Source of the DNA: Candidatus Saccharimonadota bacterium
Lineage (GTDB): Bacteria > Bacteroidota > Bacteroidia > Cytophagales > Amoebophilaceae
Assembly: GCF_936981045.1 (NCBI RefSeq)
Contig: NZ_OW441264.1
Coordinates: 510,001 to 542,000 of the forward strand
Reading direction: 5' to 3'
DNA: 32,000 nt
The translations under genes were made by a program, and so were the position numbers. Below, one piece after another: positions 14,184-30,698 of the stretch; positions within the stretch are counted from its first letter, which is position 1; each line of letters begins with the position of its first letter. The notes beneath the pieces are model-generated. The model was given only the letters and a program-made list of their open reading frames with translations, did not search any database and was not told the DNA's origin.

Positions 14184-14195
14184 AGAAGACTGTCG

Positions 14196-14231: not shown

Positions 14232-14347
14232 ATGAGAAGGGAATGGGTAAACAATGAAGAATCAAGTTAGCCAGCTACTGTATTGCGAGCAATCAGAAGC
14301 AATAGATATGCTTAATTTTAAGTGGTCCAACCATTTCTTTACTCTAG

Positions 14348-14455
14348 ACCATTGCAGGGATAGAAAACATTCCTATGATTCAAAAAGGACAAGTAATCGG
14401 AGCTAAAAATCATTTTTCTACTTTTGAGAATTTTGTTATGCTAATGGCTGAATAA
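14348..14455 (+). pseudogene. IS6-family transposase, C-terminal 35 codons
   Basis: TIAGIENIPMIQKGQVIGAKNHFSTFENFVMLMAE* aligns by eye to the IS26 C-terminus TIKGIEVMRALRKGQ.... Confidence 0.65.
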
Positions 14456-14477
14456 TAACCAATATATATCCAAAACT

Positions 14478-15116
14478 TCACTTAAAAGAAAAGACGTTAC
14501 TAACGAAAATATAGACGCGACAGAACCCAATGGTGTTAATCGGATAGGATAACCCCTGCCCATTTGCTTTAATCAATGATTCTTTTTTAGTCCATATATC
14601 GTAAAAAAAACTAACTTTTGCATCACCATTCAGGCAAGTAAAAAAGCGATATTCTGTGGGAGTAAATACCAGATGAGCCAGCTCTTGCACTTCTAGATTC
14701 TTATCATGTAGTTCAATATCAATACCCACTCTACTATCTAAAGCAATCGCATAACCAACTAGGTCATGCGAATGGGACATATTAAAGGTAATATTAGACT
14801 CCTTCAAGAAAGGTTTACCATAGGCTCCGTAGGAAAATATAATATCTTTTGGATGCTGCTTAGTGTAATAGCCTAATATATACCTTAAAATTCCATGTGA
14901 GATAATGTACTGCCTCCTTAAATGGTCCGTATAATATTTGCTGGCTTGAACTTGTTCTTCAGCTGCTAAACATTGAAGGAATGGGTTTATATTTAATTTG
15001 CACTCAGCTAGATTGACAATATAAATAAACACTTTATTAGGGTTTTGATTGAATACCAACTGGTCTAAAAGTTTTTGTTCAAAAATACCAGCACATTCCA
15101 TTAAACCCTTTAGCAT
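14478..15116 (-). CDS. 4'-phosphopantetheinyl transferase (Sfp type), C-terminus replaced by IS6 end sequence
   Basis: Has FNMSHSHD, VGIDIE and WTKKESLIKANGQGL motifs. Native sequence ends at 14528. The last ~16 codons (FCRVYIFVSNVFSFK*) are read from the IS6 terminus, so roughly 40-60 aa of a normal Sfp C-terminus are missing. Confidence 0.75.
   Translation of the reverse strand: MLKGLMECAGIFEQKLLDQLVFNQNPNKVFIYIVNLAECKLNINPFLQCLAAEEQVQASKYYTDHLRRQYIISHGILRYILGYYTKQHPKDIIFSYGAYGKPFLKESNITFNMSHSHDLVGYAIALDSRVGIDIELHDKNLEVQELAHLVFTPTEYRFFTCLNGDAKVSFFYDIWTKKESLIKANGQGLSYPINTIGFCRVYIFVSNVFSFK
14511..14527 (-). repeat. IS6-type terminal inverted repeat (GGTTCTGTCGCGTCTAT)
   Basis: Begins GGTTCTGT like IS6-family ends (IS257/IS1216-type GGTTCTGTTGCAAAG). 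The same 17-mer recurs at 29600..29616 and 22784..22800. All homology between repeat copies ends here. Confidence 0.6.
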
Positions 15117-15961: not shown

Positions 15962-17028
15962 ATGGTTAGACAAAAGCTTAGCAAGGAGTTAACATCATTA
16001 TCTCCCCACCATACAGATAAGAAATTAAGGTTGGCGGGGATGTATGGTCTATTTAGGCATGCTATAGACCAAAGTCATGGAGGTAATGGGGATAGTTTTT
16101 GTGATTTAATTGCCCATCACAAGGATTTAGGTAAATCTACTTTAGATAGTAGCTTACTACTTTCCATAAATGGCCATTTATGGGGCGCTCTTTTTCCCAT
16201 CTATTACTTTGGTACCACGCAACAAAAAAGTCAATACCTCAAGCCATTGATGGATGGGAAATTAATAGGTGGACATGCTATTACCGAAGCACAAGCAGGA
16301 TCTAATGTATCTTTAATGAAAATGCGAGCAGATAGTATAGATGATGGCTTTAGACTAAATGGATCCAAGCGATATATTACTAATGTTCCCATTAACGACA
16401 TCTTATTAGTTTATGCAAAGACAGGGGATACCGTAATGCATTTATCATTGAAAAGCAAGACTCAGGGGTCTATTTGCATCAAGATCACAGGGTTACTGGT
16501 TTTCCTCATTCGTCTATGGGTGAAGTAGTTCTTCAAGATTGAAAAATAGTGCATAATAGGTTAGTAGGTTCAGTAGGTACAGGGCAGGTAATTATCCAAA
16601 AAGTATTGGAGTTAGAACGGGCATTTATCTTTGCAGGTATATTGGGCATTATGGAATGGCAATTGGAACAAGTTATCAGATATACCAAGTTAAGACGGGT
16701 TGGTAAACAGGTTGCACTCTATGATTTACAAGCTATTTATCATAAGATAGCTGATATTTCCATGAAGCTTAAAACGGTAACATTATGGTTGCATAGATGT
16801 GCTCAATTAAAAGATAGTGATGCACGTATTACGCTAGAGAGTTCATATACTAAATTGTTTTGTAGTGAAGCATTTCTACAAGTTCCTATAGATATTGCCC
16901 ATATGATAGGTGCCTTTGGACTAGAAGTAAACCAAACCCTTTAGCCGATGGGTATTGGATGGGCTAGCTTCTAGGCTATTTTCTGGAACCAGTGAGATAC
17001 AAAAAAATATTATTGGTGCATTATTGTA
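15962..17028 (+). pseudogene. Acyl-CoA (or acyl-carrier-protein) dehydrogenase family, multiple frameshifts
   Basis: GGHAITEAQAGSNVSLMKMRADSIDDGFRLNGSKRYITN (ACAD middle domain). The frame is lost near 16430, there is a stop near 16540, a second ORF at 16549..16944 (C-terminal helical domain), then another shift to ..SGTSEIQKNIIGALL* ending at 17028. Confidence 0.8.
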
Positions 17029-17150: not shown

Positions 17151-18702
17151 GTGTGCCGTAGAAGCACAGGAAAGTGTTGAAGCTGTGCAGTAGATGAGGG
17201 AAGGCCCCTCAAAGCCGGCTTACAAGAGCAGGCTTTAAACAACCATAAGCTGCTTTGGTAAAGAGTCAAGGTAGTGAGCGTTATGGAAAAGGCACAATTA
17301 TGTGTCATGTATGAAATAGAGAGACGAACGGAAGTGAACCATTGATGAAGTGTCGAAAGTGTAAAGAAGAAGTCAAAACCAGGGGGTAGTCGTTAACCTG
17401 GGACAAATCTACCGGGAGCTTGTTTACTGGGTAGGTGGCCTCTGGCATAAAAGTGGCGTGAATCTATTTCAGGCTATTGCATGGAACTACGGGAACCTGT
17501 CATTTCGATGATAAGGGAGAAATCTAAAGAGCTGATCTCTGAGGATCAGAGTATGGATGCGAAAAACAGGGGCGGAGCAACTTGTAGTAGTGATGAAGTT
17601 TCTGTAATGGAAATGGAATGAAAGGGTTGCGTTATTTAGTTTTAATTATTAATCAACTGAAAGGGAGGAATTAATGAATGAAACAAAGTCTTTTGATATA
17701 CCAAAGCAGTTGATTTGGAAAGCTTATAAACGAGTATCCAAAAATAAAGGTGCAGCAGGTGTAGATGAAGTCTCGATAACAAAGTTTGAAGAAAATCTAA
17801 AAGATAATCTATACAAACTATGGAATCGGATATCATCCGGAAGTTATTTTCCAGAGCCAGTAAAAGCTGTTTCTATACCAAAAGATACAGGAGGGAAAAG
17901 AAACTTATGTGTACCTTCAGTATCCGACAGGATAGCACAAACAGCTGCTAGCATGTATCTTGAACCATTAGTAGAGCCGAAATTTCAAGAAGACTCCTAT
18001 GGTTATAGACCAAATAAGTCTGCATTGGATGCGATATACACAGCACGGAAGAGATGTTGGGCAAATGATTGGGCAATAGATCTTGATATATCTGGATTTT
18101 TTGACAATCTGGACCACGAATTAGTACTGCGGTCTATTAAGCAACATACAAGCTGTAAATGGGTCATACTCTACGTTGAAAGGTGGATGAAAGCTCCTAT
18201 TCAACTAGCAGATGGTAGCAAGGTAATTAGGAATAAGGGAGTTCCGCAAGGAGGTTCTATAAGCCCGATCATTTCAAACATATTTATGCATCACGCATTT
18301 GATGAATGGATGAAACACAATTACCCAACAATACCATTTGAGAGGTACGTTGATGACGCGATAGTACATTGTAGGACTAAGAGACAGGCAGAATCTATGC
18401 AAGTAATGATCGGAGAAAGATTGGCTAAGTGCAAATTGCAGTTGCATCCTGAAAAGACTCAGATTGTCTATTGTAAGGATGACGATAGAAGAAAGGAATT
18501 TCCTACACAGAGTTTTGATTTCCTAGGCTATACTTTTAGACCTAGAGGGGCAAAGAATAAGATGGGGAATTATTTCATCTCATTATTAGAGGAAATATCT
18601 AAGAAAATAGATCCAATAGTCAGAGGCTGGTTTAAGTACTATGGCAGGTTTTGTAAATCAGAGATGTATCCATCTCTGAGAAATATAGAGAGGTACCTCA
18701 TA
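17151..18702 (+). mobile_element. Group II intron 1 (5' domains plus RT ORF), 3' part removed by IS982
   Basis: Starts GTGTGCCGTAGAAG (GUGYG). About 520 nt of non-coding structured RNA precedes the RT ORF. No domain V follows, because the IS982 TIR starts at 18703. Confidence 0.8.
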
Positions 18703-18708
18703 ACCTGA
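17674..18708 (+). CDS. Group II intron reverse transcriptase/maturase (RT1), C-terminally truncated
   Basis: Has NKGAAGVDE, SYGYRPNKSALDA, GVPQGGSISP, YVDDAIVHC and FDFLGYTFRP, plus the maturase motif IVRGWFKYYG. The last codons and the stop are supplied by the IS982 terminus. Confidence 0.85.
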   Translation: MNETKSFDIPKQLIWKAYKRVSKNKGAAGVDEVSITKFEENLKDNLYKLWNRISSGSYFPEPVKAVSIPKDTGGKRNLCVPSVSDRIAQTAASMYLEPLVEPKFQEDSYGYRPNKSALDAIYTARKRCWANDWAIDLDISGFFDNLDHELVLRSIKQHTSCKWVILYVERWMKAPIQLADGSKVIRNKGVPQGGSISPIISNIFMHHAFDEWMKHNYPTIPFERYVDDAIVHCRTKRQAESMQVMIGERLAKCKLQLHPEKTQIVYCKDDDRRKEFPTQSFDFLGYTFRPRGAKNKMGNYFISLLEEISKKIDPIVRGWFKYYGRFCKSEMYPSLRNIERYLIT

Positions 18709-18965: not shown

Positions 18966-20451
18966 TCATCTCAACGTCTCTTTTAATCTACCGGGAAAAA
19001 AGATGTCTATCTGAGATATGGTCAACGCCCAGTTTCGTAGCGGCATAGTCCGTTTATCCTCGATCTTCTTTATGGCACAATATACTAATTTAACGTGAGT
19101 TCGGGATTTATTTGACTGATTTACAACAATTTAATATCAATTATTTAGTTAATATTTGCACCTATTTAACAAGTTTTTATATCTAATTTTATAAATATAA
19201 TATATATAATAAACTGATTATCAGAATTATTTGTTATTCAACTACCTATTTAACTGTCTATAAAACAAATTTTATAAATTTTCATTTATATTGATTATCA
19301 AATGAAAAAATAATCTAATCCCGAACTCACGTTAAATTATACAAAGCATTTATACTGGTAAACGCTCCTTTTGTCTTGGTAAACTTCCTAATCTGCCTAT
19401 GCAAGCTTTCTATAGGATTGGTGGTATAAATTAGCCTTCTGACAGGATCTGAATACTTAAAATAACCAGACAAATGTTCCCAATTATTTTGCCGAGATTT
19501 GGTAACCATTGGATACTTCCCCCCCCATTTTTCTTCTAATTCCAATAGATAATGCTCAGCAACTTCCTTACTTGAAGCTTGATATATTTGCTTTAAATCA
19601 GTTAAAAAACGTTTTACGTCTTTGCTAGCTACATACTTGAGTGAGTTTCGTATCTGATGTACTACACAGACCTGCACTTGTGCATTAGGGAAAACGCTAT
19701 TTATGGCTGAAGGAAAGCTTTTTAGGCCATCAACACAGGCAATAAGGATATCTTCTACACCTCTTTCCTTAAGCTCGTTAAGTACACCCAACCAGAAGTT
19801 AGCCCCCTCACTTTCAGACAAATAAAATCCCAATACTTCTTTTTTACCCTCTTGATCTATGCCTAATAAGGTATACATGCATTTGCTTACACATCTGCCA
19901 TCTTCTTTTACCTTAAAAAACATCCTATCCATGAAAACTATCGGATAAACTGATTGAAGAGGGCGGTTACGCCATTCATTTATTATCGGTAACAAGCTAT
20001 CTGTAATAGATGATATTTCAGCAGCTGATACTTTATGATCATAGATCTCTTCAACATGAACGGCTATAGATTTATAGCTCATACCACTAGAAAACATGCT
20101 TAAGATCTTGCTTTCCAGCTCAGGATGTAGGCTTGTTTGACGCTTTTTAACTATTTGTGGATCGAAACTACCTGTCCTATCCCTAGGAGTTAGCAGATCA
20201 AAGGAACCAGAACTTGTACGTAAAGTTTTAGAGCTTTTTCCATTTCTTCTATTATTTTCTGTTGAATCACTAGATAAATGGTGTGCCATTTCACCTTCTA
20301 GACTTGCCTCTAGAAGCTTTTTTATCAGAGGCGTTAAAGCACCACCTTTTCCTGTTAAAGGCTTACCTAAACGGATAGAGCACAAAATATTTTCCTACAG
20401 AAATTTGTAATCTATTAAACCAACATAGGAATTGTTCTTATTTTCTTCCAT
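18966..20451 (-). pseudogene. IS256-family (mutator-type) transposase, nonsense codon plus MITE insertion
   Basis: GKGGALTPLIKKLLEASLEGEMAHHL..VFMDRMFFKV..LIACVDGLKSF..VVHQIRNS is typical of IS256. ATG at 20451 with an in-frame TAG at 20397..20395. The C-terminal 41 codons (KLVYCAIKKIEDKRTMPLRNW..) are separated by the MITE at 19093..19332. Confidence 0.9.
19093..19332 (-). mobile_element. 240-bp MITE
   Basis: Complete copy with both TIRs. Flanked by TAATTTA / TAAATTA (apparent 7-bp duplication, one mismatch). Splits the IS256 transposase between ..ALY and KLVY... Confidence 0.9.
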
Positions 20452-20526
20452 GTCTAAAACCTTTAATGTTTATTTAATTAATTTATAACTTTTTATCGCC
20501 TTGACACAGTTTATAGAACACTTCCG

Positions 20527-21515
20527 ATTAGACGTATTGTGAACCAGTCATATATATATTAGTTATAGAAGGTTTTTTCTCTTTTAGTGCATAAGCTGTA
20601 ATTCCAGTTATCAAATTGACTAGAAAATTAGGTATGCTTCTATGCCTGGAATGTTCTATCTGGCTAATATTTTTGAGCTGATCTATAATAGTTTCAATTA
20701 TAGATCGTTTTCTAAGCATCAGTTTATCCCAGAGTGGCATAAAAGAATTTTTCATATTTTTTCTGATCTGGGTAATGAGTTCCACGCCTTTCTCGATCAG
20801 TTTTTCAAATAAATCTTTGCTTATATAACCTTTATCGGCAAACATTTTACCCATCAAGTGTTTACATAAATTTTCTACAGGAAGCCTATCATTAGTTTTA
20901 CCTGTGGTCAGTTGAAAATTCATAATTTCTCCTAAATCATTGACTATCAAGTGCAACTTTAATCCAAAAAACCAACCGGTGCTGGTTTTACCTTTAGTAG
21001 CAATCGATTTAAAAACCCTGTGCGTATAGGCTCTTTTGATATGGCAAACCTTGATGGCTGTTGCATCCATAAAATAACAACCTGTTTTTGTTTTAGAAAA
21101 ACTTTGTGTAAAACAGTACAAGGGAACTAACGTTCTTTGGATCAGTTCTATAAATCTATTGTAGCTTACTAACTTTCCAAATTTACTAGAATGAAATTGC
21201 TGTAAATGAATATAATAAGACTTAAAATTTCTAAAACCAATCACATGAAAGGCAATAAGAACAGTCATTATTTCACTCAAAGTTAATGAACAAGTTCTAG
21301 TGGGTTTTCTTTTAGAGTTGGTTAACAGTTGTTTTTCCATATACGGCATAAACTTTATGAGAAATTCATCAACAGCATAATATATTTCAACTAATTTTTC
21401 TACATTCATAACTGGCTCCTTTAGATAATCTGGTTAGTATTTTTTTATCTCCAAATTTAAAACACAAAGGAGCTTTTTAAAGCTATTTTTTAACAAGCTA
21501 ATCCCGAACTGAGGT
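20527..21515 (-). mobile_element. IS982-family insertion sequence with intact transposase; about 13 bp of its 3' TIR are replaced by the IS256 end
   Basis: The 5' TIR AATCCCGAACTGAGGT ends at 21515. At the other end the sequence ATTAGACGTATTGTGAACC abuts the IS256 IR directly. Confidence 0.9.
20528..21409 (-). CDS. IS982-family DDE transposase (intact, 293 aa)
   Basis: The only uninterrupted copy in the window. Has MDATAIKVCH, ADKGYIS and [13 protein letters not shown] (DDE context). The size and AC-terminated TIRs fit IS982. Confidence 0.9.
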   Translation of the reverse strand: MNVEKLVEIYYAVDEFLIKFMPYMEKQLLTNSKRKPTRTCSLTLSEIMTVLIAFHVIGFRNFKSYYIHLQQFHSSKFGKLVSYNRFIELIQRTLVPLYCFTQSFSKTKTGCYFMDATAIKVCHIKRAYTHRVFKSIATKGKTSTGWFFGLKLHLIVNDLGEIMNFQLTTGKTNDRLPVENLCKHLMGKMFADKGYISKDLFEKLIEKGVELITQIRKNMKNSFMPLWDKLMLRKRSIIETIIDQLKNISQIEHSRHRSIPNFLVNLITGITAYALKEKKPSITNIYMTGSQYV

Positions 21516-21554
21516 TTCTATGGGTTAAGTATCTGAGAAATCGGTTATTAATAA

Positions 21555-21794
21555 ATGTGAGTTCGGGATTTATGTGACTGATTTACAACAATTTAATATC
21601 AATTATTTAGTTAATATTTGCACCTATTTAACAAGTTTTTATATCTAATTTTATAAATATAATATATATAATAAACTGATTATCAGAATTATTTGTTATT
21701 CAACTATCTATTTAACTGTCTATAAAACAAATTTTATAAATTTTCATTGATATTGATTATCAAATGAAAAAATAATATAATCCCAAACTCACGT
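21555..21794 (-). mobile_element. 240-bp MITE (slightly degenerate TIRs)
   Basis: ATGTGAGTTCGGGATT ... AATCCCAAACTCACGT. A 39-bp RT2 fragment (21516..21554) lies between it and the IS982. Confidence 0.85.
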
Positions 21795-22172
21795 TTATTG
21801 ATTTCGCTTTACTTATACAATAAAGTTTCCAGTGGCCTACTGGATTCATATCAGATCTCCCGGACTACGATGTGAAACATTCATAGCGTGCAACCCCTAA
21901 CACCCCGGCACTTGTATGATGGTCATGGTCTATTTTTTTCCATCCTACTATCAGCCTTCCTGTAGCCACTAGACAGTCGGCAAATGTGCTTAAACGGCTT
22001 AACGAGGCTAATTCGGGTTCACTTTTGTTGCAGCCCTCTATTTTGCAGATGCATTTAAAGGTAACTTAAACCTGTGAATCACCTCACAAATCCAACCTCC
22101 TGCTAGACTCCCGAAATAGACAAATTAGAGTCAGGGGACTTACACCCCATTTGTTGCACACCTGTGCCGGCG
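21795..22172 (-). other. Second copy of the probable group II intron 2 5' segment
   Basis: Reverse complement of 11246..11586 with a few substitutions, extending about 40 nt further (21795..21833). Joined to the IS6 transposase at the identical nucleotide (..GCCATTGCA). Confidence 0.4.
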
Positions 22173-22737
22173 TGCAATGGCTGCAGACTTAAAACACTTA
22201 AAACTAAGCATAGGTTTTAGCCGTTTTTTGATAAACCTATGATCTTGTTCAACTCTATTATTCAAGTATTTGTTTTGAAATATTTGAATGGTATGATCTT
22301 GATCAAGTTCTGTATTGATCGCATCAAAGGCAGCTTTATTACTACCGCTTTTGTCAATTAACGTGAGTTCGGGATTATATTATTTTTTCATTTGATAATC
22401 AATATCAATGAAAATTTATAAAATTTGTTTTATAGACAGTTAAATAGATAGTTGAATAACAAATAATTCTGATAATCAGTTTATTATATATATTATATTT
22501 ATAAAATTAGATATAAAAACTTGTTAAATAGGTGCAAATATTAACTAAATAATTGATATTAAATTGTTGTAAATCAGTCAAATAAATCCCGAACTCACGT
22601 TTCTTAGGAATATTATTTTCTGTGATCGCCTTACGAAAAAAAGAAAAAGCTGCAGACTTGTCTCTATGCTCAGATAGAAAAAAGTCAACTGAATTACCAT
22701 AACGATCTACTGCTCTATAATAAATAGATTCACTTTG
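22173..22737 (-). pseudogene. IS6-family transposase fragments split by a MITE
   Basis: ESIYYRAVDRYGNSVDFFLSEHRDKSAAFSFFRKAITENNIPKK (22601..22737), then IDKSGSNKAALDAINTELDQDH..FKSAAIA (22173..22360). The N-terminus is missing. Confidence 0.8.
22361..22600 (+). mobile_element. 240-bp MITE
   Basis: Complete copy with both TIRs, inside the IS6 transposase. Confidence 0.9.
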
Positions 22738-22805: not shown

Positions 22806-23326
22806 AAAATCATTATTTTAGTACCTGTAGTTAAAAACTATGATAAAATTTATCTAAAAGATGTACTTTGGGAAGCTTGGCGTCAAGTCAAAGCAAATCA
22901 AGGCTCAGCAGGGATTGATGGTAAAAGCATAAGTGATATAATAACGTGAGTTCGGGATTAGATTATTTTTTCATTTGATAATCAATATTAATAAAAATTT
23001 ATAAAATTTGTTTTATAGACAGTTAAATAGGTTGTTGAATAACAAATAACTCTGATAATCAGTTTATTATATACATTATATTTATAGAATTAGATATAAA
23101 AACTTGTTAAATAGGTGCAAATATTAACTAAATAATTGATATTAAATTGTTGTAAATCAGTCAAATAAATCCCGAACTCACGTTAATAGATCAAGGTGAG
23201 GTAAAGATTATCAATAAATTTCAGCAGCAACTACGCGCAAAGCTATACAAATTTACCTCAAGCAGGTTGGTAGAAATACCCAAAGCTAAAGGTGGAACAA
23301 GGCCACTAGAGGTAATGACCGTAGAA
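22806..23326 (+). pseudogene. RT2 N-terminal fragments split by a MITE
   Basis: KNYDKIYLKDVLWEAWRQVKANQGSAGIDGKSISDI (22806..22943) and IDQGEVKIINKFQQQLRAKLYKFTSSRLVEIPKAKGGTRPLEV (23184..23326) correspond to RT blocks 0-1 of group II intron RTs. No start codon is retained. Confidence 0.75.
22944..23183 (+). mobile_element. 240-bp MITE
   Basis: Complete copy, flanked by TAATA on each side (apparent 5-bp duplication). Confidence 0.9.
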
Positions 23327-23566
23327 ACGTGAGTTCGGGATTAGATTATTTTTTCATTTGATAATCAATATCAATGAAAATTTATAAAATTTGTTTTATA
23401 GACAATTAAATAGGTAGTTGAATAATAAATAATTCTGGTAATCAGTTTATTATATATATTATATTTATAGAATTAGATATAAAAACTTGTTAAATAGGTG
23501 CAAATATTAACTAAATAATTGATATTAAATTGTTGTAAATCAGTCAAATAAATCCCGAACCCACGT
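23327..23566 (+). mobile_element. 240-bp MITE
   Basis: Complete copy (right TIR AATCCCGAACCCACGT). Confidence 0.9.
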
Positions 23567-23709
23567 TATAAATATAATATATATAATAAACTGATTACCA
23601 GAATTATTTATTATTCAACTACCTATTTAACTGTCTATAAAACAAATTTTATAAATTTTCATTGATATTGATTATCAAATGAAAAAATAATCTGATTCCG
23701 AACTCAGGT
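23567..23709 (-). mobile_element. Partial MITE (143 bp) in inverted orientation
   Basis: Matches the second half of the reverse-orientation consensus. Its terminus GATTCCGAACTCAGGT is intermediate between the MITE and IS982 TIRs. Confidence 0.8.
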
Positions 23710-23734
23710 TACTAAGCCAACGTAGTCATTATGC

Positions 23735-23825
23735 ATTGTTTCTTCCATGTCTAAAACCTTTATCTGTTAAGTATGTAAATTATAACTTTTTATCGCCTTG
23801 ACACAGTTTATAGAACACTTCCGAC
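23735..23825 (-). mobile_element. Solo IS256 end fragment (IR plus ~65 bp of leader)
   Basis: ..TTCTTCCATGTCTAAAACC..TATCGCCTTGACACAGTTTATAGAACACTTCC matches 20440..20525. Confidence 0.85.
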
Positions 23826-24191
23826 AGACCGTAAAAACGCTATGCATGGCTTTAGGTAAGCTGTAAAGGCATTTGTATTACTCATTTACAGCTTATGTTT
23901 TACATCCTCAAAGGTGCGTTTATGGTCTATATTCTTGGAATTTTATCCTTTATTTATTTTATTGCTATTGTTGAGGGCCTAACATTTTTAGACTTTGATC
24001 ATGCGGTTTACCCAATGCAGTCTATTTTGTTCTATTGATCCTATCTATAGTATTTAGCTAGGTTATCTGAGGCGTAAGCAAATAGGCGTATACAAGGTGT
24101 AGAAATTGGTTGGAACGACCAGCGGTATATTTTATATTTAAGTGGGCGTAGTTTCAACAATATTTTTCTTTGCTTTATATTCTTTATTTCC

Positions 24192-25982
24192 ATGGCCGCT
24201 ATATCAGGTGATTTTATTAAGTATACCATCAAGGTAGGTTCTAAAACCCTAGATGCCAGCTACCCTATACAATCCATAATAGTGGATAAAAGAATCAACA
24301 AAATACCTTATGCCAAAATAGTTTTGCATGATGGTAACATTCAGTCGCAAACTTTTTCTATAGCCAATGACAAAACCTTTTCCATTGGCGCCACGGTTAC
24401 CATACGAGCCAGTTACGGCGATGGATTAGCGCAGCTCTTCGAAGGTGTAGTAGCCAAACTAGCCATTCAGTCTAGCTTAACAGCGTTATCTACTCTGACT
24501 GTAACGTGTAGAGATGTTGCTTATAAGACTACTCTTACGCCTAAAACGGCGCATTTTGTAAAGAGCAAGGATAGTGATCTTTTAAAAAAAATTTTGAACG
24601 GGTATAGCGGTTTAAACTATAAAATTGAAGCGACCACTATTGTACATGAAAATATTTCACAGCATGAAATATCAGATTGGGACTTCCTAAACATTCGCGC
24701 GGAGGCAAATGGACAGATCATAGTGGTGAATGATGGAGTCATTTCAGTTAAAAAACTTAAATCAACCGGAAAAGGCTCCTTTACCTATACCTATGGAGCC
24801 GATTTTATTGACTTTGATGCTGAAATAGATGCAAAAGACCCATGGTCAGCTGCTACCGCCTTCTCCTGGAATAGTAGCAAACAAAGTAAAGTTTCTGAAA
24901 AAGCAAGCGACCCAGGAGAACAGTCTATAGGGGACCTTTCTTATAAAAAATTAACCGCTGCTGCCCAACCAGGTAACGTTGCTATATCCCACAGTGGTGT
25001 ATTAGATCCCTTGGAAATCAAAACATTGGCAACTGGCTTACTAAACCGGAGTAGAATAGCTAAAATAAAAGGTAGCGTTACGGTTTCAGGTAATGCGGAA
25101 TTACGTCATGATGGGCTTATAACCATTGAAAAAGGTGCAAACCACTTTTCAGGAAATGCTTATGTATCTGGTGTTCAACATATCATATCAGATGGAGGTT
25201 GGCAGACTCTATTAACCTTAGGGCTAGATGCACAACGCTACATGCACAAATACCATGACATTGGTGCACTTCCAGCAGCAGGCATAATGCCTCCTATACA
25301 TGGGCTACAACTCGGTATTGTCAAGCAAATCACAGAGGATCCTCAAAAGCATAATCGAATTTTGGTACATCTGCCTTTGGTACAAGACAAACCTAAAGAG
25401 GGCATTTGGTGTCGCTTGGCTTCATTTTATGCTACGCAAGCATCAGGTGCTTTTTTTATTCCAGAGCTAGAGGATGAAGTGGTAGTAGGTTTTGTAAACG
25501 ATGATATTCGATTTCCTATTATTCTAGGCTCCCTGCATAGCAGTAAACATGTGCCACCTAAAACAGCTGATCCTAACAATCTTTTTAAATCTTTTGTTTC
25601 TAGAGAAAAATTAGAGTTTACCTTTCATGACAATAAAGAAGGCCCTGAAATCATTATTAAAACATCCAAGGGAGGACTTATTCAGATATCAGATAAGAAA
25701 AAAAGTCTTGAAATAGTAGACCAGAATGGTAATAAATTGGTTTTAAACAACGATGGAATCAACCTAACCAGCGGGAAAGATATTCATTTGAGTGCAAGGG
25801 CTAGCATCACCATAAAGTCAGGCAAAGATGTAGTGGTAAATGGTACGCAAAGTGTAAACTTGAAGAGCATGAACATTAATGCACAAGCTTCCATGAAGGC
25901 CATCTTAAGTGGCAATGCTAGTACAGAAGTAAAGTCTGGTATGGCTACCATTGTCAAAGGTACAACAGTACTTATAAATTAA
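24192..25982 (+). CDS. vgrG: VgrG-like spike protein (gpD/gp27-like plus gp5 OB-fold plus beta-helix) of a contractile injection system
   Basis: 596 aa. N-terminal gpD-like region (YTIKVGSKTLD..IVLHDG..). gp5/Phage_base_V-like block GLQLGIVKQITEDPQKHNRILVHLP..GIWCRLASFYA..GAFFIPELEDEVVVGF..PIILGSL. C-terminal repetitive beta-helix (KLVLNNDGINLTSGKDIHLSA..ITIKSGKDVVVNG..). Confidence 0.85.
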   Translation: MAAISGDFIKYTIKVGSKTLDASYPIQSIIVDKRINKIPYAKIVLHDGNIQSQTFSIANDKTFSIGATVTIRASYGDGLAQLFEGVVAKLAIQSSLTALSTLTVTCRDVAYKTTLTPKTAHFVKSKDSDLLKKILNGYSGLNYKIEATTIVHENISQHEISDWDFLNIRAEANGQIIVVNDGVISVKKLKSTGKGSFTYTYGADFIDFDAEIDAKDPWSAATAFSWNSSKQSKVSEKASDPGEQSIGDLSYKKLTAAAQPGNVAISHSGVLDPLEIKTLATGLLNRSRIAKIKGSVTVSGNAELRHDGLITIEKGANHFSGNAYVSGVQHIISDGGWQTLLTLGLDAQRYMHKYHDIGALPAAGIMPPIHGLQLGIVKQITEDPQKHNRILVHLPLVQDKPKEGIWCRLASFYATQASGAFFIPELEDEVVVGFVNDDIRFPIILGSLHSSKHVPPKTADPNNLFKSFVSREKLEFTFHDNKEGPEIIIKTSKGGLIQISDKKKSLEIVDQNGNKLVLNNDGINLTSGKDIHLSARASITIKSGKDVVVNGTQSVNLKSMNINAQASMKAILSGNASTEVKSGMATIVKGTTVLIN

Positions 25983-26042
25983 TAGAATTATTTTTTAGAT
26001 TCTTATGCTTACATCATAATATCATTATAATCATATAACACT

Positions 26043-26351
26043 ATGCCACCTGCAGCTGTATTATTAAATAAACACATGTGCCCTATGGTCACGCCAGGTG
26101 TTCCACCTGTTCCGCATGCTAGTGGAGGAATGATTATGTTGGGTTGTCCAACAGTTTTAATCGGCAAGTTCCCGGCAGCAAGAATGGGAGACATGATGCT
26201 TTGTAATGGCCCCCCACCCCATCCGGATACTATTGTCAAGGGATCTGCAACTGTTCTAATAGGTAAAAAGCCAGCAGCACGCTTAGGCGATACAACAGGT
26301 ATGGGCGGAATGATATTGCAAGGGTGCCCTACAGTAATCATTGGTGGGTAG
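26043..26351 (+). CDS. PAAR-domain spike-tip protein
   Basis: 102 aa with two explicit PAAR motifs (FPAARMGD, KPAARLGD) in the usual V-L-I-G-x-x-PAAR-x-GD context, plus conserved Cys/His (HMCPM, LCNG). Confidence 0.9.
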   Translation: MPPAAVLLNKHMCPMVTPGVPPVPHASGGMIMLGCPTVLIGKFPAARMGDMMLCNGPPPHPDTIVKGSATVLIGKKPAARLGDTTGMGGMILQGCPTVIIGG

Positions 26352-26384
26352 AATACAATTAAACAAATAGAAAAAAGGCTGCGT

Positions 26385-26789
26385 ATGGAAGATGAAAATA
26401 ATTTCTTGGGTATAGGATGGAAGTTTCCACCTTCTTTTAACCACCATAGTAGCACAGTAGAAATGGTAAGCGGATTGAACGATATCAGAGAAAGTTTAAT
26501 CATCTTAATGCGTACTAGAGTGGGTGAACGCATTGTAGAACAGAGATATGGTTGTGATTTGACCCCACTTGCCTTTCAGCAATTGGATCTTAACTTGGAA
26601 ACCTTTATGGTCAATAACATCAAGCAAACCATCGCAGAACATGAGCCTAGAGTAGAGGTGCTTGATGTACAATTAACTACGCCAAATGATGGAGAAGGGG
26701 CTATCGATATTAATATAAGTTATAAGGTAAAAAAACTAGATATAGAAGAAACGATCCAATATGGCTACCATCCTATTTTTAATAAATAG
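26385..26789 (+). CDS. gp25-like baseplate wedge protein (GPW_gp25 family)
   Basis: FLGIGWKFPP...VSGLNDIRESLIILMRTRVGERI..RYGCDL...IKQTIAEHEPRVEVLDV matches the GPW/gp25 pattern G-x-GW-x-FP...I-x-x-S-I...T-x-x-GER...EPR. Confidence 0.85.
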   Translation: MEDENNFLGIGWKFPPSFNHHSSTVEMVSGLNDIRESLIILMRTRVGERIVEQRYGCDLTPLAFQQLDLNLETFMVNNIKQTIAEHEPRVEVLDVQLTTPNDGEGAIDINISYKVKKLDIEETIQYGYHPIFNK

Positions 26790-26870
26790 CATCTTAGAAA
26801 TAGTATGTAGACAAATCATGCATAATAAGGCAAAATTTGTATGCTACTTTTTTTTGATAAAAAAGCAGCC

Positions 26871-27024
26871 AAAAAATCAAGCCCTGTGCAAAAAATTGCT
26901 GAAAGTACTCCTTAGAGCTGGAAAAACAGAAGCCGCTCTGCAGCCCCCATTAAACTGTTTTTCTGATCAGCTGCAAGCTGCATTTTCTCATCGTAACTTT
27001 TTACAAGGGGCGTTTTTGTTTTGT
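26871..27024 (+). repeat. Palindromic intergenic element (full-length copy) inside the injection-system gene string
   Basis: AAAAAATCAA-GCCCTGTGCAAAAAATTGC (26881..26899) pairs with GTAACTTTTTACAAGGGGC (26993..27011), which is followed by GTTTTTGTTTTG. Related copies lie at 3585..3673, 6161..~6270 and 9851..9897. Confidence 0.6.
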
Positions 27025-27107
27025 GTTGCTGGAACGCTAAATGGATGCTCTATTTATGTTTTATCCACTATGAATTCAAAATCAGCATTATTTATAGATT
27101 AAAGACT

Positions 27108-29594
27108 ATGAAAAACACCCTACTAGAACTGGATTATCCTTTTTTAAAGGAGCAAGGGATAGCCTACATTCAACAATTAGCAGGAAAGAAATGGACGGAC
27201 TATGGAGATCACGACCCTGGAATTACCATTTTAGAGGTACTTTCTTTTGTGATCATGGACCTAGAATATAGAACCAATTTCTATATAGAAGATATATGGA
27301 CTAAGGATCCTGATGCAGTAGCCAATCCCAATGAACAACCATTCTACAAAGCTGAAGAGATCCTTCCTTGTAATCCGCTAACCCAGTGGGACTTTTTAAA
27401 GATTGTCTTGGATGTTCCAGGGGTGAAAAATGCGAATATCTTTTTAAGTGATGGACCAAAAGAAATCAAAGGTGGTTACAAGATTTTTGTGGATGTAGAA
27501 GAACGTATCAGCCATACACTGCAAGAAAAAGAGGTATTAGATTTAATCAAGCAAAGATTATATGCACAAAGGAATCTATGTGAAGATTTCTTTCTGATTC
27601 AAACGATGGAAACCCTGCCCATTAGTATTAAAGCAACCTTTGAGGTAGCTAATTGTTTGGCTTATGAAGAAGGAGAAACCATTATTGCTCAGATATTATT
27701 TGCTTTTCAAGAGTTTTTCTCACCACGTATTACTTTTTACAGCATTAGTCAATTACTAGAAAAAGGTAGAATTATAGACCAGATCTTTACGGGACCACTT
27801 TTAACCCAAGGTTTTATAGATGAAGAGGAGCTCATTTGCCTAAAAAACAAATCTAGAATTTACGTAGTTGAACTCTTAGAACAGGCCACTAAAATGGCTA
27901 GTATTAAAAGTGTATTAAACTTTGAACTCTTTATTCATGAAGAAAATACAAGGACCAGTAGCGTCACGATACCTGTCTTACCAGATCGATCTTTAGTGCT
28001 GGATATTCCACAAAGTGAAATTATCCTCCATTATAATGGCCTACCCATTAGTACAGATTGGGGAAAAGTTATAGACCTACTTGAAGATATGAAAGGAAGG
28101 GGCACTTTAACAAAAGCCTATCTACAAGAGGAAAATGTCTTTGTTTTAGAAGGAAACTATAGATATTTAGAAGACCATGTTTCCATACAACAAGACTTTC
28201 CCTTACTCTATAATGTAGGTCATGAAGGGTGTTCTCCATCTGAAACTCTTGAAAACCAATCGAAAGCAAAACAATTAAAAAGCTACTTAATGTTTTTTGA
28301 CCAGCTTTTTGCCAATTATCTGGGTCAATTGTCCAATATCAAACACACTATGGCCATCTACAGTGAGCGTTATAATCAGCCTAATGGCCGTTTGCCCTTG
28401 GACGTATCTAGAATGCATAGCATTATTAAACAACCTACTAAAGAGTCTGATTCAGGTAATGATCTTGACTTTGTGGTACAAAGAAAGTACTTAGATTTAA
28501 AAAAAGAAATAGTAGATAGATCTTCTGAAGATAAAGACCAAGGTGATGCAACGACTAAAGCTTACTATTCTTATATCAATAGAGCATTAGAAAGTGATAT
28601 TCGAAGCTTAGACAAACGATCAAGGGTATTAGACCATTTATTAGCTTATTTTGCAGAACGATTTACCATCTACTCGTTGCACCTCTATCCTAAAAATGAG
28701 GAAATGCAATGGGATGAATTTAATACAAATAAAGCTCTTTTTCTAAAGGATTATACTGATATCAGTAAAAATAGAAACCGAGCGGCCCATATAGCGGCCA
28801 ATGAAGTGAATAACTGGATCCATTATACGCCATCTGGTTTTAAGCGTCGTATTTACCGCAATTTAGGTATTAAAAGTTTAGAAAAAAAGCTTTTACATCA
28901 AGTAGTCAAGAATAGTATGTACTTAGACAAAAAGTCCGTACAATATAATTTGGATATTTTTCTAGGCAAAAATTGCCAAACAGCATATGATGATATTTTC
29001 ATGTTTAGAGGGAAATATGAAAATCTGCAATCCTTAGTTATATCCTATGGTATCAATGAACAGTATTACAATATTGTAAAAAAAGCCAATGATACCTATA
29101 GCATTCTACTTTATGTGGATAAAGTAAAAAAGCACACTATTGAGCTAGTTACTGAACCTGTTATGCATATCGAAGAAGCAGAGGCTATTGTACAACAAAG
29201 TGTGGAGTTGCTTAGAGCATTGAACCAAGCATGTGAAGGATTTCACTTAATAGAACATATTCTGCTTAGAAGTGACGATACATTAACAACAGAACAGGAT
29301 CCCTATTCATTTATCATGACAATGGTTTTTCCTGCATGGCCAGCCAGGTTTCAACAATCTTCATTTAGGCATGCTGTAGAAGAAATGGTTCTAATGGAAG
29401 GCCCAGCCCATATACTTACTAATACTTTTTGGTTAGATTTTGAAGATATGGAAACCTTCGAGAAGGCCTATAAATCATGGATACTGTTAAAAACTGATGG
29501 TAAATCTAGCAAAGTAGAAATAGATGCAGCAGCCAAAGTATTAATGGATCTTATAGCTTCTTATAATAATAAAGAAGCAAATCTATGTGGATAA
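27108..29594 (+). CDS. Baseplate wedge protein, gp6/gpJ-like (Afp11/Afp12 class)
   Basis: 828 aa from the ATG at 27108. The ORF-track start at 27021 lies inside the repeat element. The N-terminal motif WTDYGDHDPGITILEVLSFVIMDLEYR is the hallmark of the putative baseplate assembly proteins encoded next to gp25 in Afp/PVC-type clusters. Its position directly after VgrG-PAAR-gp25 supports the call. Confidence 0.6.
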   Translation: MKNTLLELDYPFLKEQGIAYIQQLAGKKWTDYGDHDPGITILEVLSFVIMDLEYRTNFYIEDIWTKDPDAVANPNEQPFYKAEEILPCNPLTQWDFLKIVLDVPGVKNANIFLSDGPKEIKGGYKIFVDVEERISHTLQEKEVLDLIKQRLYAQRNLCEDFFLIQTMETLPISIKATFEVANCLAYEEGETIIAQILFAFQEFFSPRITFYSISQLLEKGRIIDQIFTGPLLTQGFIDEEELICLKNKSRIYVVELLEQATKMASIKSVLNFELFIHEENTRTSSVTIPVLPDRSLVLDIPQSEIILHYNGLPISTDWGKVIDLLEDMKGRGTLTKAYLQEENVFVLEGNYRYLEDHVSIQQDFPLLYNVGHEGCSPSETLENQSKAKQLKSYLMFFDQLFANYLGQLSNIKHTMAIYSERYNQPNGRLPLDVSRMHSIIKQPTKESDSGNDLDFVVQRKYLDLKKEIVDRSSEDKDQGDATTKAYYSYINRALESDIRSLDKRSRVLDHLLAYFAERFTIYSLHLYPKNEEMQWDEFNTNKALFLKDYTDISKNRNRAAHIAANEVNNWIHYTPSGFKRRIYRNLGIKSLEKKLLHQVVKNSMYLDKKSVQYNLDIFLGKNCQTAYDDIFMFRGKYENLQSLVISYGINEQYYNIVKKANDTYSILLYVDKVKKHTIELVTEPVMHIEEAEAIVQQSVELLRALNQACEGFHLIEHILLRSDDTLTTEQDPYSFIMTMVFPAWPARFQQSSFRHAVEEMVLMEGPAHILTNTFWLDFEDMETFEKAYKSWILLKTDGKSSKVEIDAAAKVLMDLIASYNNKEANLCG

Positions 29595-29599
29595 GGTTC

Positions 29600-29900
29600 G
29601 GTTCTGTCTCGTCTATAATTTCTTTTTGTATAGTTCTTCTCTTTACCTGAAACTTTGGTTATTATTCGGCCACTAGCATAACAAAATTCTCAAAAGTAGA
29701 AAGATGATTTTTAGTTCCGATTACTTGTCCTTTTTGAATCATAGGAATGTTTTCTATCCCTGCAATGGTCTAGAGTAAAGAAATGGTTGGACCACTTAAA
29801 ATTAAGCATATCTATTGCTTCTGATTGCTCGCAATACAGTAGCTGACTAACTTGATTCTTCATTGTTTACCCATTCCCTTCTCATCCCAAGGTACGTTCA
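29600..29900 (-). mobile_element. IS6 3' end (IR plus transposase C-terminus) joined to the 3' end of group II intron 2, inverted copy
   Basis: GGTTCTGTCTCGTCTAT at 29600..29616. The rest is the reverse complement of 14216..14527, including half of domain V. Confidence 0.75.
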
Positions 29901-30266
29901 GGGGATGTTGTAATTGGTAGTGGAATGATTAAGTATCCTGAGAAAGTTGTGCAAGGTTTATGAAGAAGACTGTCGGACCGCCGTATTCGGGAAAACTGAA
30001 CGTACGGTGGGATGAGAAGGGAATGGGTAAACAATGAAGAATCAAGTTAGTCAGCTACTGTATTGCGAGCAATCAGAAGCAATAGATATGCTTAATTTTA
30101 AGTGGTCCAACCATTTCTTTACTCTAGACCATTGCAGGGATAGAAAACATTCCTATGATTCAAAAAGGACAAGTAATCGGAACTAAAAATCATCTTTCTA
30201 CTTTTGAGAATTTTGTTATGCTAGTGGCCGAATAATAACCAATATATATCCAAAACTTCACTTAAA
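29901..30266 (+). mobile_element. RT2 tail, domain V, intron 3' end and IS6 transposase C-terminus (direct copy), cut by a MITE
   Basis: Near-identical to 14121..14487. Confidence 0.8.
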
Positions 30267-30506
30267 ACGTGAGTTCGGGATTAGATTATTTTTTCATTTG
30301 ATAATCAATATTAATAAAAATTTATAATATTTGTTTTATAGACAGTTAAATAGGTAGTTGAATAAAAAATAATTCTGATAATCAGTTTATTATATATATT
30401 ATATTTATAAAATTAGATATAAAAACTTATTAAATAGGTGCAAATATTAACTAAATAATTGATATTAAATTGTTGTAAATCAGTCAAATAAATCCAGAAC
30501 TCACGT
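30267..30506 (+). mobile_element. 240-bp MITE
   Basis: Complete copy (right TIR AATCCAGAACTCACGT). Its two flanks come from different parts of the IS6::intron unit, so no target duplication is visible. Confidence 0.9.
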
Positions 30507-30698
30507 TAATAACCGATTTCGCAGATACTTAACCCATAGAAGAAAAGGCCGTGGGTGTGGGTGGCAAAGCTATCCCAATAGCAAACTCTATACAATGGGG
30601 ATGTTGTACATTGGTAGTGGAATGATTAAGTATACTGGGAGAGTTGTGCAAGGTTTATGAAGAAGACTGTCGGACCGCCGTATTCGGGAAAACAGAAC
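30507..30698 (+). pseudogene. RT2 C-terminal fragment plus partial domain V (third copy), cut by IS5
   Basis: Matches 14025..14222. Homology ends inside domain V, where the IS5 terminus GAGGCCGTTGTG starts. Confidence 0.8.

What the first reader, a model, noticed from the sequence alone, without database searches (positions are those of the whole stretch)
24192..29594. Intact spike/baseplate module of a contractile injection system, stranded without sheath or tube genes
Four co-directional intact genes encode a VgrG-like spike, a PAAR tip, a gp25-like wedge protein and a large gp6/J-like wedge protein. None of the partner genes that normally surround them occurs anywhere in the 32 kb: no tube, sheath, tube initiator, tape measure, gpI-like protein, AAA+ ATPase or cap, and no capsid or terminase. 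A solo IS256 end lies upstream at 23825. An IS6 terminal repeat starts 5 nt after the last stop codon (29600). Nearly every other accessory gene nearby is a pseudogene while these four ORFs (about 5 kb of coding sequence) are uninterrupted, which argues for ongoing selection. The products would then work in trans with a sheath/tube locus elsewhere. The family is that of Afp/PVC-type extracellular injection systems and the T6SS subtype iv described in Amoebophilus. The order here (VgrG, PAAR, gp25) differs from the afp8-afp9-afp10 order (VgrG, gp25, PAAR). A 318-bp gap holding a terminator-like repeat sits between gp25 and the gp6-like gene.
Basis: partly seen in the sequence, partly recalled or inferred. 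Interest (0 to 1): 0.85.

Follow-up and report, generated by a model that had tools for sequence, protein, structure and literature searches.

The report
Known Cardinium injection-system spike/baseplate gene block
These four intact genes are the spike and baseplate part of the phage-tail-like secretion system (T6SS-iv, "Afp-like") already described in Cardinium and Amoebophilus, and their separation from the sheath and tube genes is the published, normal arrangement in Cardinium.

Summary
The four co-directional intact ORFs exist at the stated coordinates. They encode VgrG/Cis8, PAAR/Cis10, gp25/Cis9 and an 828-aa wedge protein. The wedge protein is the Afp12/Cis12 orthologue, not the Baseplate_J (Afp11/gp6) protein: it has no Pfam hit and matches All3315 (2.6e-77), Algo12 (2.4e-69), Pvc12 and Afp12. 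[quoted passage not shown]

No other injection-system gene lies in the 32 kb. However, a full-length sheath protein is encoded elsewhere on the same 1.137-Mb chromosome. The same four-gene block, in the same order and without sheath or tube, is present in four other Cardinium genomes I examined. In Amoebophilus relatives it is contiguous with the sheath/tube genes. dN/dS is 0.04-0.14, and about 0.15 on the window's own lineage.

All of this is published. Penz 2012 reported 16 AFP-like genes in five regions, including CAHE_0763-0760. Mann 2017 found all of them transcribed. Halter 2023 reported all 15 genes in this genome. The finding is already known and of low interest.

The parts
23893..24191 (+). 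Conserved upstream region of the block (probable native promoter/5' UTR of the VgrG gene)
   Evidence: Nucleotide similarity to orthologous loci starts here: 79.5% over 303 bp to Sogatella Cardinium L028, with partial matches to L024 and L025. Promoter function is inferred, not shown.
24192..25982 (+). VgrG / Cis8 (Afp8-like) spike, 596 aa, no C-terminal effector extension
   Evidence: Pfam Phage_base_V 4.9e-19; TIGR01646 143.8 bits, above its cutoff. Full-length PDB sequence matches to All3320 1e-115, SalCIS VgrG 4e-110, Afp8 4e-33 and Pvc8 4e-31. dN/dS 0.09-0.12.
26043..26351 (+). PAAR / Cis10 spike tip, 102 aa, no toxin extension
   Evidence: Pfam PAAR_motif 2.8e-18; SalCis10 1e-31. dN/dS 0.07-0.09 in three pairs and 0.32 in one.
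26385..26789 (+). gp25 / Cis9 (Afp9-like) baseplate wedge/sheath-initiator protein, 134 aa
   Evidence: Pfam GPW_gp25 3e-16; Algo9 3e-26, Pvc9 1e-18, Afp9 1e-11, T4 gp25 1e-7. dN/dS 0.04-0.07.
26790..27107 (+). Expanded spacer between gp25 and Cis12. About 27048-27107 is conserved among group-A Cardinium. About 26913-27012 is an insertion absent from the other strains examined and contains a weak hairpin at 26968-26980.
   Evidence: The spacer is 12 bp in the Amoebophilus relative, 64 bp in the Nabis strain, 215 bp in the Dermatophagoides strain and 318 bp here. RNA fold z = -1.92. The terminator call is weak. In distant relatives this junction holds the Cis11 gene.
27108..29594 (+). Afp12 / Cis12-type baseplate wedge protein, 828 aa
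   Evidence: 100% identical to NCBI 'Afp12-like phage baseplate wedge protein [Cardinium endosymbiont of Oedothorax gibbosus]'. PDB sequence matches: All3315 2.6e-77, Algo12 2.4e-69, SalCis12 3e-34, Pvc12 3e-17, Afp12 2e-16. No Baseplate_J hit. dN/dS 0.10-0.14.
23710..23824 (.). Solo fragment matching the end region of the IS256-family element (left flank)
   Evidence: 83% over 115 bp to 20413-20527, the stretch adjoining the IS256 transposase ORF 19327-20385.
23322..23714 (.). MITECca01 copies (one complete, one partial, inverted) upstream of the block
   Evidence: ~243-bp repeat, 95-97% identical to copies at 12540, 19080, 21546, 22360, 22943 and 30265. This matches the ~240-bp, 169-copy MITE described for this genome (PMC9769881).
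29600..30243 (.). Two inverted IS6-family (ISCca2-like) 3'-end fragments abutting the Cis12 stop codon (right flank)
   Evidence: GGTTCTGT terminal sequence at 29600. IS6-type transposase C-terminus on both arms. Self-inverted match 29655-30242 at 90%. Copies also at 14120-14530.

Best explanation
[quoted passage not shown] It is the orthologue of CAHE_0763-0760 in Cardinium cEper1 and Aasi_1080-1083 in Amoebophilus asiaticus.

Proposed mechanism (inferred from solved homologous systems, not shown here):
- A VgrG trimer capped by PAAR forms the spike.
- gp25 and Cis12, together with the Baseplate_J protein Cis11 encoded elsewhere, form six wedges around the spike.
- Tube and sheath, encoded at a distant locus, polymerise on this baseplate.
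- Sheath contraction drives the spike out of the bacterium into the host cell.

In the Amoebophilus/Cardinium ancestor the Cis11 gene had already left its position between gp25 and Cis12. In the Cardinium lineage the cluster was further broken between the Afp7-like gene and VgrG. The four-gene block has since been carried around intact by IS-mediated rearrangement, keeping about 300 bp of its own upstream sequence, and is maintained by purifying selection.
For: Identity of the genes:
- Curated-threshold profile hits for three genes.
- PDB sequence matches for all four to CIS components 8, 10, 9 and 12.

Source organism:
- Gene 4 is 100% identical to the annotated Afp12-like protein of the O. 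gibbosus Cardinium.

Orthology and synteny:
- The same four genes occur in the same order in the Nabis, Dermatophagoides, Tipula and Sogatella Cardinium genomes. Flanking genes differ except in the Nabis and Dermatophagoides strains, which share an upstream ATP-synthase operon.
- In Amoebophilus sp. the block is contiguous with cap-sheath-tube-Afp7 upstream and the tape measure downstream.
- Penz 2012 Table S5 lists exactly this correspondence.

Partners in trans:
- Sheath P0242 (495 aa) is on the same 1,137,202-bp contig.
- Halter 2023 reports all 15 T6SS-iv genes in this genome.
- Seven Cardinium sheath loci contain cap-sheath-tube-Afp7 and none of the four spike genes within +/-10 kb.
- In the Nabis strain the sheath is at about 88 kb and the spike block at about 952-958 kb of one 1.158-Mb chromosome.

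Selection:
- Pairwise dN/dS is 0.04-0.14.
- There are 45 nonsynonymous against 71 synonymous window-specific changes, giving omega of about 0.15.

Expression:
- All 15 orthologues are transcribed in cEper1 (Mann 2017).

Position of Cis11:
- In Draconibacterium and Maribellus a ~3.5-kb gene sits between gp25 and Cis12. It has a weak Baseplate_J hit (E=4e-4), and its Cardinium homologue retrieves proteins named 'baseplate J/gp47'.
Against: - I could not retrieve the rest of this genome. The locations and intactness of its tube, cap, Afp7-like, Cis11, tape-measure and ATPase genes rest on Halter 2023's one-sentence statement, not on my own inspection.
- My search for Cis11 returned no Cardinium entries at all.
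- There are no expression or imaging data for this strain.
- The lineage-specific omega was computed only on codons invariant in three other strains, which is a crude estimator.
- The cell-anchored T6SS-like mode of action is extrapolated from Amoebophilus.
Confidence: 0.9

Rival explanations
1. Decaying remnant: the block is a leftover of a broken CIS cluster that no longer functions, and its ORFs are intact only because too little time has passed.
For: The neighbourhood is dominated by IS and MITE fragments. An IS6 end lies 5 nt after the last stop codon. The gp25-Cis12 spacer has grown to 318 bp.
Against: - dN/dS is 0.04-0.14, and about 0.15 for window-specific changes.
- The same intact block occurs in four other Cardinium genomes separated by dS up to about 1.7.
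- The sheath in this genome is full length.
- The orthologues are transcribed in cEper1.
Confidence: 0.03
2. Auxiliary 'orphan' spike island: a second VgrG-PAAR module, as in canonical T6SS orphan vgrG islands, supplying an alternative spike or effector to a main cluster that has its own spike genes.
For: It is separated from the sheath/tube locus, and VgrG-PAAR pairs often occur as orphan islands in canonical T6SS (general knowledge).
Against: - Cardinium sheath/tube loci contain no VgrG, PAAR, gp25 or Cis12 within +/-10 kb.
- Penz 2012 lists only one copy of each.
- Only one protein named from this organism appeared among the listed Cis12 homologues.
- The block includes structural wedge proteins (gp25, Cis12).
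- There is no adjacent effector gene, and VgrG and PAAR have no extension domains.
Confidence: 0.03
3. Same genes, different mode of action: the particles are released as extracellular Afp/PVC/AlgoCIS-type injection systems, not as cell-anchored T6SS-iv.
For: The best sequence matches include extracellular systems (AlgoCIS, SalCIS, Afp, PVC). Sequence alone does not distinguish the two modes.
Against: - The closest characterised orthologues (Amoebophilus, 44-66% identity, syntenic) form membrane-anchored arrays (Bock 2017 as cited in PMC12342168 and PMC8894135).
- Cardinium shows intracellular parallel arrays of such structures.
- An obligate intracellular symbiont has little use for lysis-released particles (inference).
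Confidence: 0.05

Closest known systems
Cardinium hertigii cEper1 AFP-like genes CAHE_0763 (VgrG), CAHE_0762 (PAAR), CAHE_0761 (gp25), CAHE_0760 (Afp12-like) (Penz et al. 2012, PMC3486910)
   Same: Same four genes, same order, same separation from the sheath/tube block (CAHE_0456-0463), from Afp11/Afp13-like (CAHE_0037/0036), from the ATPase and from the tape measure. All are transcribed. Cis12 orthologues annotated as C. hertigii are 73-78% identical to the window's.
   Different: The flanks differ: here IS256, IS6 and MITECca01 debris surround the block. The gp25-Cis12 spacer is longer here. No functional difference is evident.
T6SS subtype iv of Amoebophilus asiaticus, Aasi_1080-1083 within Aasi_1072-1083 (Bock et al. 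2017; Penz 2012 Table S5)
   Same: Orthologous genes in the same order: 45% (VgrG), 66% (PAAR), 46% (gp25) and 44% (Cis12) identity to the Amoebophilus sp. relative L001. Cis11 is likewise encoded elsewhere.
   Different: In Amoebophilus the four genes directly follow cap-sheath-tube-Afp7, the gp25-Cis12 gap is 12 bp, and in Amoebophilus sp. 36-38 the tape measure follows. In Cardinium the cluster is broken between Afp7 and VgrG.
AlgoCIS (7AEB/7AEF), Anabaena tCIS (7B5H), SalCIS (9RCE), PVC (6J0M/6J0N), Afp (6RAO/6RBK) baseplates
   Same: All four proteins have significant sequence matches to components 8, 10, 9 and 12 of these solved systems. The wedge architecture (Cis11-Cis12 heterodimer plus gp25 around a VgrG-PAAR spike) is presumably shared.
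   Different: Those clusters are contiguous and contain Cis11 next to Cis12. Afp orders its genes 8-9-10. Afp, PVC, AlgoCIS and SalCIS are extracellular. Many distant Cis12 homologues carry a PF07411 (YegP) domain that is absent here.
Canonical T6SS (subtypes i-iii) VgrG/PAAR/TssE
   Same: Shared domains: VgrG OB-fold, PAAR and the gp25/TssE fold.
   Different: Scores are far below the curated cutoffs for TssI (TIGR03361, 49.5 against 186) and TssE (TIGR03357, 26.5 against 53.2). The wedge partner is Cis12-type, not TssF/TssG.

Membership tests
T6SS-iv / Afp-like CIS of Amoebophilaceae (Amoebophilus-Cardinium) | VgrG (Cis8/Afp8-like) spike gene | tested here: met
   Phage_base_V 68.9 bits and TIGR01646 143.8 bits, both above cutoff. 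Afp8 4e-33, All3320 1e-115.
T6SS-iv / Afp-like CIS of Amoebophilaceae (Amoebophilus-Cardinium) | PAAR and gp25 genes immediately downstream of VgrG, in the order VgrG-PAAR-gp25 | tested here: met
   Pfam PAAR_motif and GPW_gp25 above cutoff. The order is identical in L001/L002 (Amoebophilus sp.) and L024-L028 (Cardinium).
T6SS-iv / Afp-like CIS of Amoebophilaceae (Amoebophilus-Cardinium) | Afp12/Cis12-type wedge gene directly after gp25 (no Cis11 in between), orthologous to Aasi_1083/CAHE_0760 | tested here: met
   Penz 2012 Table S5.
T6SS-iv / Afp-like CIS of Amoebophilaceae (Amoebophilus-Cardinium) | Sheath gene in the same genome | tested here: met
   P0242, 495 aa, 'phage tail sheath family protein [Cardinium endosymbiont of Oedothorax gibbosus]', is on the same 1,137,202-bp contig. 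It sits in a >=90%-identity cluster with the Nabis strain sheath.
T6SS-iv / Afp-like CIS of Amoebophilaceae (Amoebophilus-Cardinium) | Tube, Afp7-like, cap, Cis11 (Baseplate_J), tape measure and AAA+ ATPase in the same genome | not testable with these tools
   This genome is not in the indexed collections, and the Cis11 search returned no Cardinium entries. Halter 2023 states that all 15 genes are present. Close relatives have cap-sheath-tube-Afp7 blocks.
T6SS-iv / Afp-like CIS of Amoebophilaceae (Amoebophilus-Cardinium) | Cell-anchored, intracellular arrays firing outwards (T6SS-like mode of action) | not testable with these tools
   This needs cryo-ET. It is known for Amoebophilus and hypothesised for Cardinium.
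   No Pfam or PHROG hit. There is only an N-terminal 48-residue match to TIGR02243 at E=0.007. The best PDB matches are all Cis12-type. Cis12 proteins do contain a gp6-like N-terminal part according to PMC8894135, so the resemblance is real, but the gene is not the Afp11 orthologue.
Canonical T6SS (TssI/TssE equivalogs) | Scores above the NCBIfam cutoffs for TIGR03361 (TssI) and TIGR03357 (TssE) | tested here: not met
   49.5 against 186.35 bits and 26.5 against 53.2 bits.

The most novel reading that the evidence does not exclude
The block may have become an autonomous, internally regulated transcription unit. It keeps about 300 bp of native upstream sequence. It also has a ~60-bp element (27048-27107), conserved among group-A Cardinium, just before cis12. 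That element could be an internal promoter or translational control site, evolved after Cis11 left this junction. The ~100-nt insertion seen only in this strain (about 26913-27012) might further uncouple Cis12 from spike expression. If so, IS-driven scattering would have produced separately tuned sub-operons for one machine.
Probability: 0.2. Interest if true: 0.2.

Novelty: already known. Interest (0 to 1): 0.12.

Why it matters
The T6SS-iv is thought to be the main route by which Cardinium delivers effectors into arthropod cells, possibly including factors for reproductive manipulation. The integrity of its spike/baseplate genes in a genome that is about 30% mobile elements therefore fits the view that the machine is essential to the symbiont. 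That point, the scattered gene arrangement, and the presence of the full gene set in this strain are already in the literature (Penz 2012, Mann 2017, Halter 2023, and the 2025 Cardinium review). This analysis adds four small things:
- a corrected gene identity (Cis12, not Baseplate_J);
- a quantitative selection estimate for this strain;
- the exact boundaries of the conserved unit (23893-29594);
- the observation that the gp25-cis12 junction, where Cis11 sits in distant relatives, has been expanding in Cardinium.

Tried and rejected
- The look-up of encoding contigs with the window's VgrG, with P0001 and with the strain's sheath P0242: none is on record. I could not fetch the rest of this genome.
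- The single genome-contig scan, run with a sheath query, returned seven Cardinium genomes but not the O. gibbosus strain.
- The third and last homologue search used a Cardinium Afp11-like fragment (L025 21045-22487, minus strand). It returned only partial 'baseplate J/gp47' proteins from other taxa and no Cardinium entry, not even the query's own protein. Cis11 in this genome remains unlocated by me.
- Bock et al. 2017 (PMC6485382) is not held, and the Halter 2023 supplements held as text contain none of the searched terms.
- Pfam and PHROGs on gene 4 gave no hits. The PDB sequence search resolved its identity instead.
- Intrinsic terminator in the 318-bp spacer: rejected as unsupported. It is a 5-bp stem, terminator-like sites are not enriched, and the fold z-score is -1.92.
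- The spacer as a MITECca01 insertion: rejected. It shows only weak partial matches to other intergenic spots and none to the 243-bp repeat.
- Sigma-70 promoter scan: uninformative (24 sites found, 21.6 expected).
- Structure prediction was not run, because the sequence-level matches to solved CIS components were already decisive.

Full report
**Observation.**
- 24192-25982 (596 aa)
- 26043-26351 (102 aa)
- 26385-26789 (134 aa)
- 27108-29594 (828 aa)

The mechanical ORF for the last one begins at a TTG at 27021. The ATG at 27108 is the start shared by all orthologues.

Profile searches give curated-threshold hits for three of them:
- Phage_base_V (68.9 bits) plus TIGR01646 vgr_GE (143.8 against a cutoff of 121.8) for the first
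- PAAR_motif (66.3 bits) for the second
- GPW_gp25 (59.4 bits) for the third

The fourth has no Pfam or PHROG hit at all. Its only NCBIfam match is a 48-residue N-terminal stretch of TIGR02243 at E=0.007.

**What the fourth gene is.** A sequence search against PDB chains identifies it as a Cis12/Afp12-type baseplate protein:

| PDB protein | E-value |
|---|---|
| All3315 (Anabaena tCIS) | 2.6e-77 |
| Algo12 | 2.4e-69 |
| SalCis12 | 3e-34 |
| Pvc12 | 3e-17 |
| Afp12 | 2e-16 |

The homologue search shows it is 100% identical to the NCBI entry 'Afp12-like phage baseplate wedge protein [Cardinium endosymbiont of Oedothorax gibbosus]', on a 1,137,202-bp contig. Proteins named from Cardinium strains are 66-88% identical and the Amoebophilus sp. 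36-38 protein is 44% identical.

According to the AlgoCIS structure paper, Cis12 proteins have a gp6-like inner part and a gp7-like outer part. They pair with Cis11, the Baseplate_J-type protein, to form the wedge (PMC8894135). The wedge gene missing from the window is Cis11/Afp11.

The other three proteins also have their best solved-structure matches in CIS components 8, 10 and 9. VgrG and PAAR align end to end with their homologues and carry no effector extensions.

**Absence of partner genes in the window.** I ran tblastn of the window with cap, sheath, tube, Afp7-like, DUF5908 and tape-measure proteins from a contiguous Amoebophilus cluster, and with Cis11 from Draconibacterium. There were no hits at E<=1e-3. 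The absence claim is correct.

**Context in relatives.**
- In Amoebophilus sp. 36-38 (L001) the four genes follow cap, sheath, tube, DUF5908 and the Afp7-like gene directly. The gp25-Cis12 gap is 12 bp and the tape measure comes next.
- In the Cardinium genomes of Nabis, Dermatophagoides, Tipula and Sogatella hosts the same four genes are intact and in the same order, with no sheath or tube nearby. The flanks are an ATP synthase operon (Nabis, Dermatophagoides), IS/AAA genes (Tipula) or a tRNA-synthetase gene next to a sigma-54 gene (Sogatella).
- Conversely, seven Cardinium sheath loci contain cap-x-sheath-x-x-tube-Afp7 and nothing from the spike block within +/-10 kb.
- In the complete Nabis-strain chromosome the sheath lies at about 88 kb and the spike block at about 952-958 kb. 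In the Tipula strain they lie at about 1,057 kb and about 160-166 kb.
- In Draconibacterium and Maribellus the order is VgrG-PAAR-gp25-[~3.5-kb gene]-Cis12. The intervening 1174-aa protein has a sub-threshold Baseplate_J hit (E=4e-4). Its Cardinium homologue, used as a query, retrieves proteins named 'baseplate J/gp47'.

Two conclusions follow. The VgrG-PAAR-gp25 order is the norm in this CIS lineage. And the gp25-Cis12 junction is the place from which Cis11 was lost in the Amoebophilus/Cardinium ancestor.

**Partners in this genome.** The 90%-identity sheath cluster seeded with the Nabis-strain protein contains P0242. This is a 495-aa 'phage tail sheath family protein [Cardinium endosymbiont of Oedothorax gibbosus]' on the same 1,137,202-bp contig. 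I could not fetch the rest of the genome and could not find its Cis11. For the remaining components I rely on Halter et al. [quoted passage not shown]

**Selection.** Nei-Gojobori estimates against the four orthologous Cardinium blocks:

| Gene | dN/dS |
|---|---|
| VgrG | 0.09-0.12 |
| PAAR | 0.07-0.09 (one pair 0.32) |
| gp25 | 0.04-0.07 |
| Cis12 | 0.10-0.14 |

dS ranges from 0.41 to 1.72. At codons where the three closest strains are identical and only the window differs, there are 71 synonymous and 45 nonsynonymous changes, giving omega of about 0.15. This estimator is crude, but it is far from neutrality. In cEper1 all 15 system genes are transcribed at moderate to high level (PMC5698495).

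**Boundaries and flanks.**
- Nucleotide similarity to orthologous loci starts at about 23893, roughly 300 bp upstream of the VgrG ATG, and stops exactly at the Cis12 stop codon at 29594.
- Upstream lie a ~115-bp fragment matching the end region next to the IS256 transposase gene (23710-23824) and copies of a ~243-bp repeat. That repeat corresponds to MITECca01, the ~240-bp, 169-copy MITE described for this genome (PMC9769881).
- Downstream, GGTTCTGT... begins at 29600. Two inverted IS6-type 3' fragments follow, then another MITECca01 copy and an IS5 transposase gene.

**The 318-bp spacer.**
- The last ~60 bp (27048-27107) are conserved among group-A Cardinium.
- About 100 nt (roughly 26913-27012) are absent from the other strains examined.
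- The 'terminator-like repeat' is a 5-bp stem. Such sites are not enriched (6 found, 3.6 +/- 2.1 expected), and the spacer's fold z-score is -1.92.

**Neighbourhood.** Besides mobile-element debris and a split acyl-CoA dehydrogenase, the window contains open dnaE, MFS transporter, glutathione peroxidase and PPTase genes. The contrast 'everything else is a pseudogene' is overstated.

**Comparison with what is known.** Penz et al. [quoted passage not shown] Their Table S5 pairs Aasi_1080/CAHE_0763 (VgrG), Aasi_1081/CAHE_0762 (PAAR), Aasi_1082/CAHE_0761 (gp25) and Aasi_1083/CAHE_0760 (Afp12). It places Afp11 at CAHE_0037/Aasi_0557, away from the cluster in both organisms. The 2025 Cardinium review states that all sequenced Cardinium have T6SS-iv homologues (PMC12342168). 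The gene in the window is already annotated as Afp12-like in the public record.

**Verdict.** One gene was mis-assigned, and the supposedly surprising 'stranding' is the published, lineage-wide arrangement. Novelty: already known. Interest: low.

Noticed in passing
window 10701-11062, 12540-12782, 19080-19333, 21546-21796, 22360-22601, 22943-23185, 23325-23710, 30265-30508: At least eight copies of a ~243-bp repeat (95-97% identical) lie within 32 kb, some nested or inverted. This is consistent with the published MITECca01 of this genome (PMC9769881).
   Followed up: partly
window 26834-26957; also 3565-3674, 9870-9936, 6153-6187; L007 14901-20109; L008 11522-11591: Part of the gp25-cis12 spacer shares 73-86% similarity with other intergenic spots in the window and with intergenic DNA of two other Cardinium strains. 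It may be a short dispersed intergenic repeat distinct from MITECca01.
   Followed up: no
L025 21045-22487 (minus strand; gene runs off the locus): In the Dermatophagoides Cardinium strain the Afp11/Cis11-like gene (called as 1257 aa) lies only about 8.6 kb downstream of cis12 on the opposite strand. Some strains therefore keep the two wedge genes loosely linked.
   Followed up: partly
P0051: A 916-aa protein from a eukaryote protein set (eukprot) is 42% identical to Cis12 and carries a GPW_gp25 domain. It is probably a gp25-Cis12 read-through or fusion call from an Amoebophilaceae symbiont contaminating a protist dataset.
   Followed up: no
P0060-P0119: Many distant Cis12 homologues (roughly 870-1190 aa) carry a PF07411 (YegP/DUF1508) domain that the Cardinium/Amoebophilus proteins lack. 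This fits the idea that the outer part of Cis12 is an evolutionary hotspot (PMC8894135).
   Followed up: no
window 15962-16528 and 16549-16944: An acyl-CoA dehydrogenase is split into two ORFs (N/M domains and C domain), which is an apparent recent pseudogene.
   Followed up: partly
window 17196-17309 and 17674-18708; 12208-12498: A group II intron D1-D4 RNA domain (Rfam RF01999, 107.6 bits) is followed by an RT/maturase ORF whose maturase domain is truncated. A second short ORF that looks by eye like a reverse-transcriptase fragment (not profile-tested) lies at 12208-12498.
   Followed up: partly
window 4819-4892: A tRNA gene (Rfam RF00005, 64.8 bits) sits between an IS5 fragment and two hypothetical ORFs. 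Its anticodon was not determined.
   Followed up: no
window 29655-30242 and 14014-14530: A near-perfect 590-bp palindrome is made of two inverted IS6 3'-end fragments, with a related arrangement near 14.1-14.5 kb. It looks like the IS6-derived deletion or MITE-like derivatives discussed for this genome.
   Followed up: partly
(tool behaviour): The homologue search with a 480-aa Cardinium Cis11 fragment returned no protein longer than about 840 aa and no Cardinium entry, not even the source protein. This suggests that very long proteins were not retrieved as candidates for this query.
   Followed up: no
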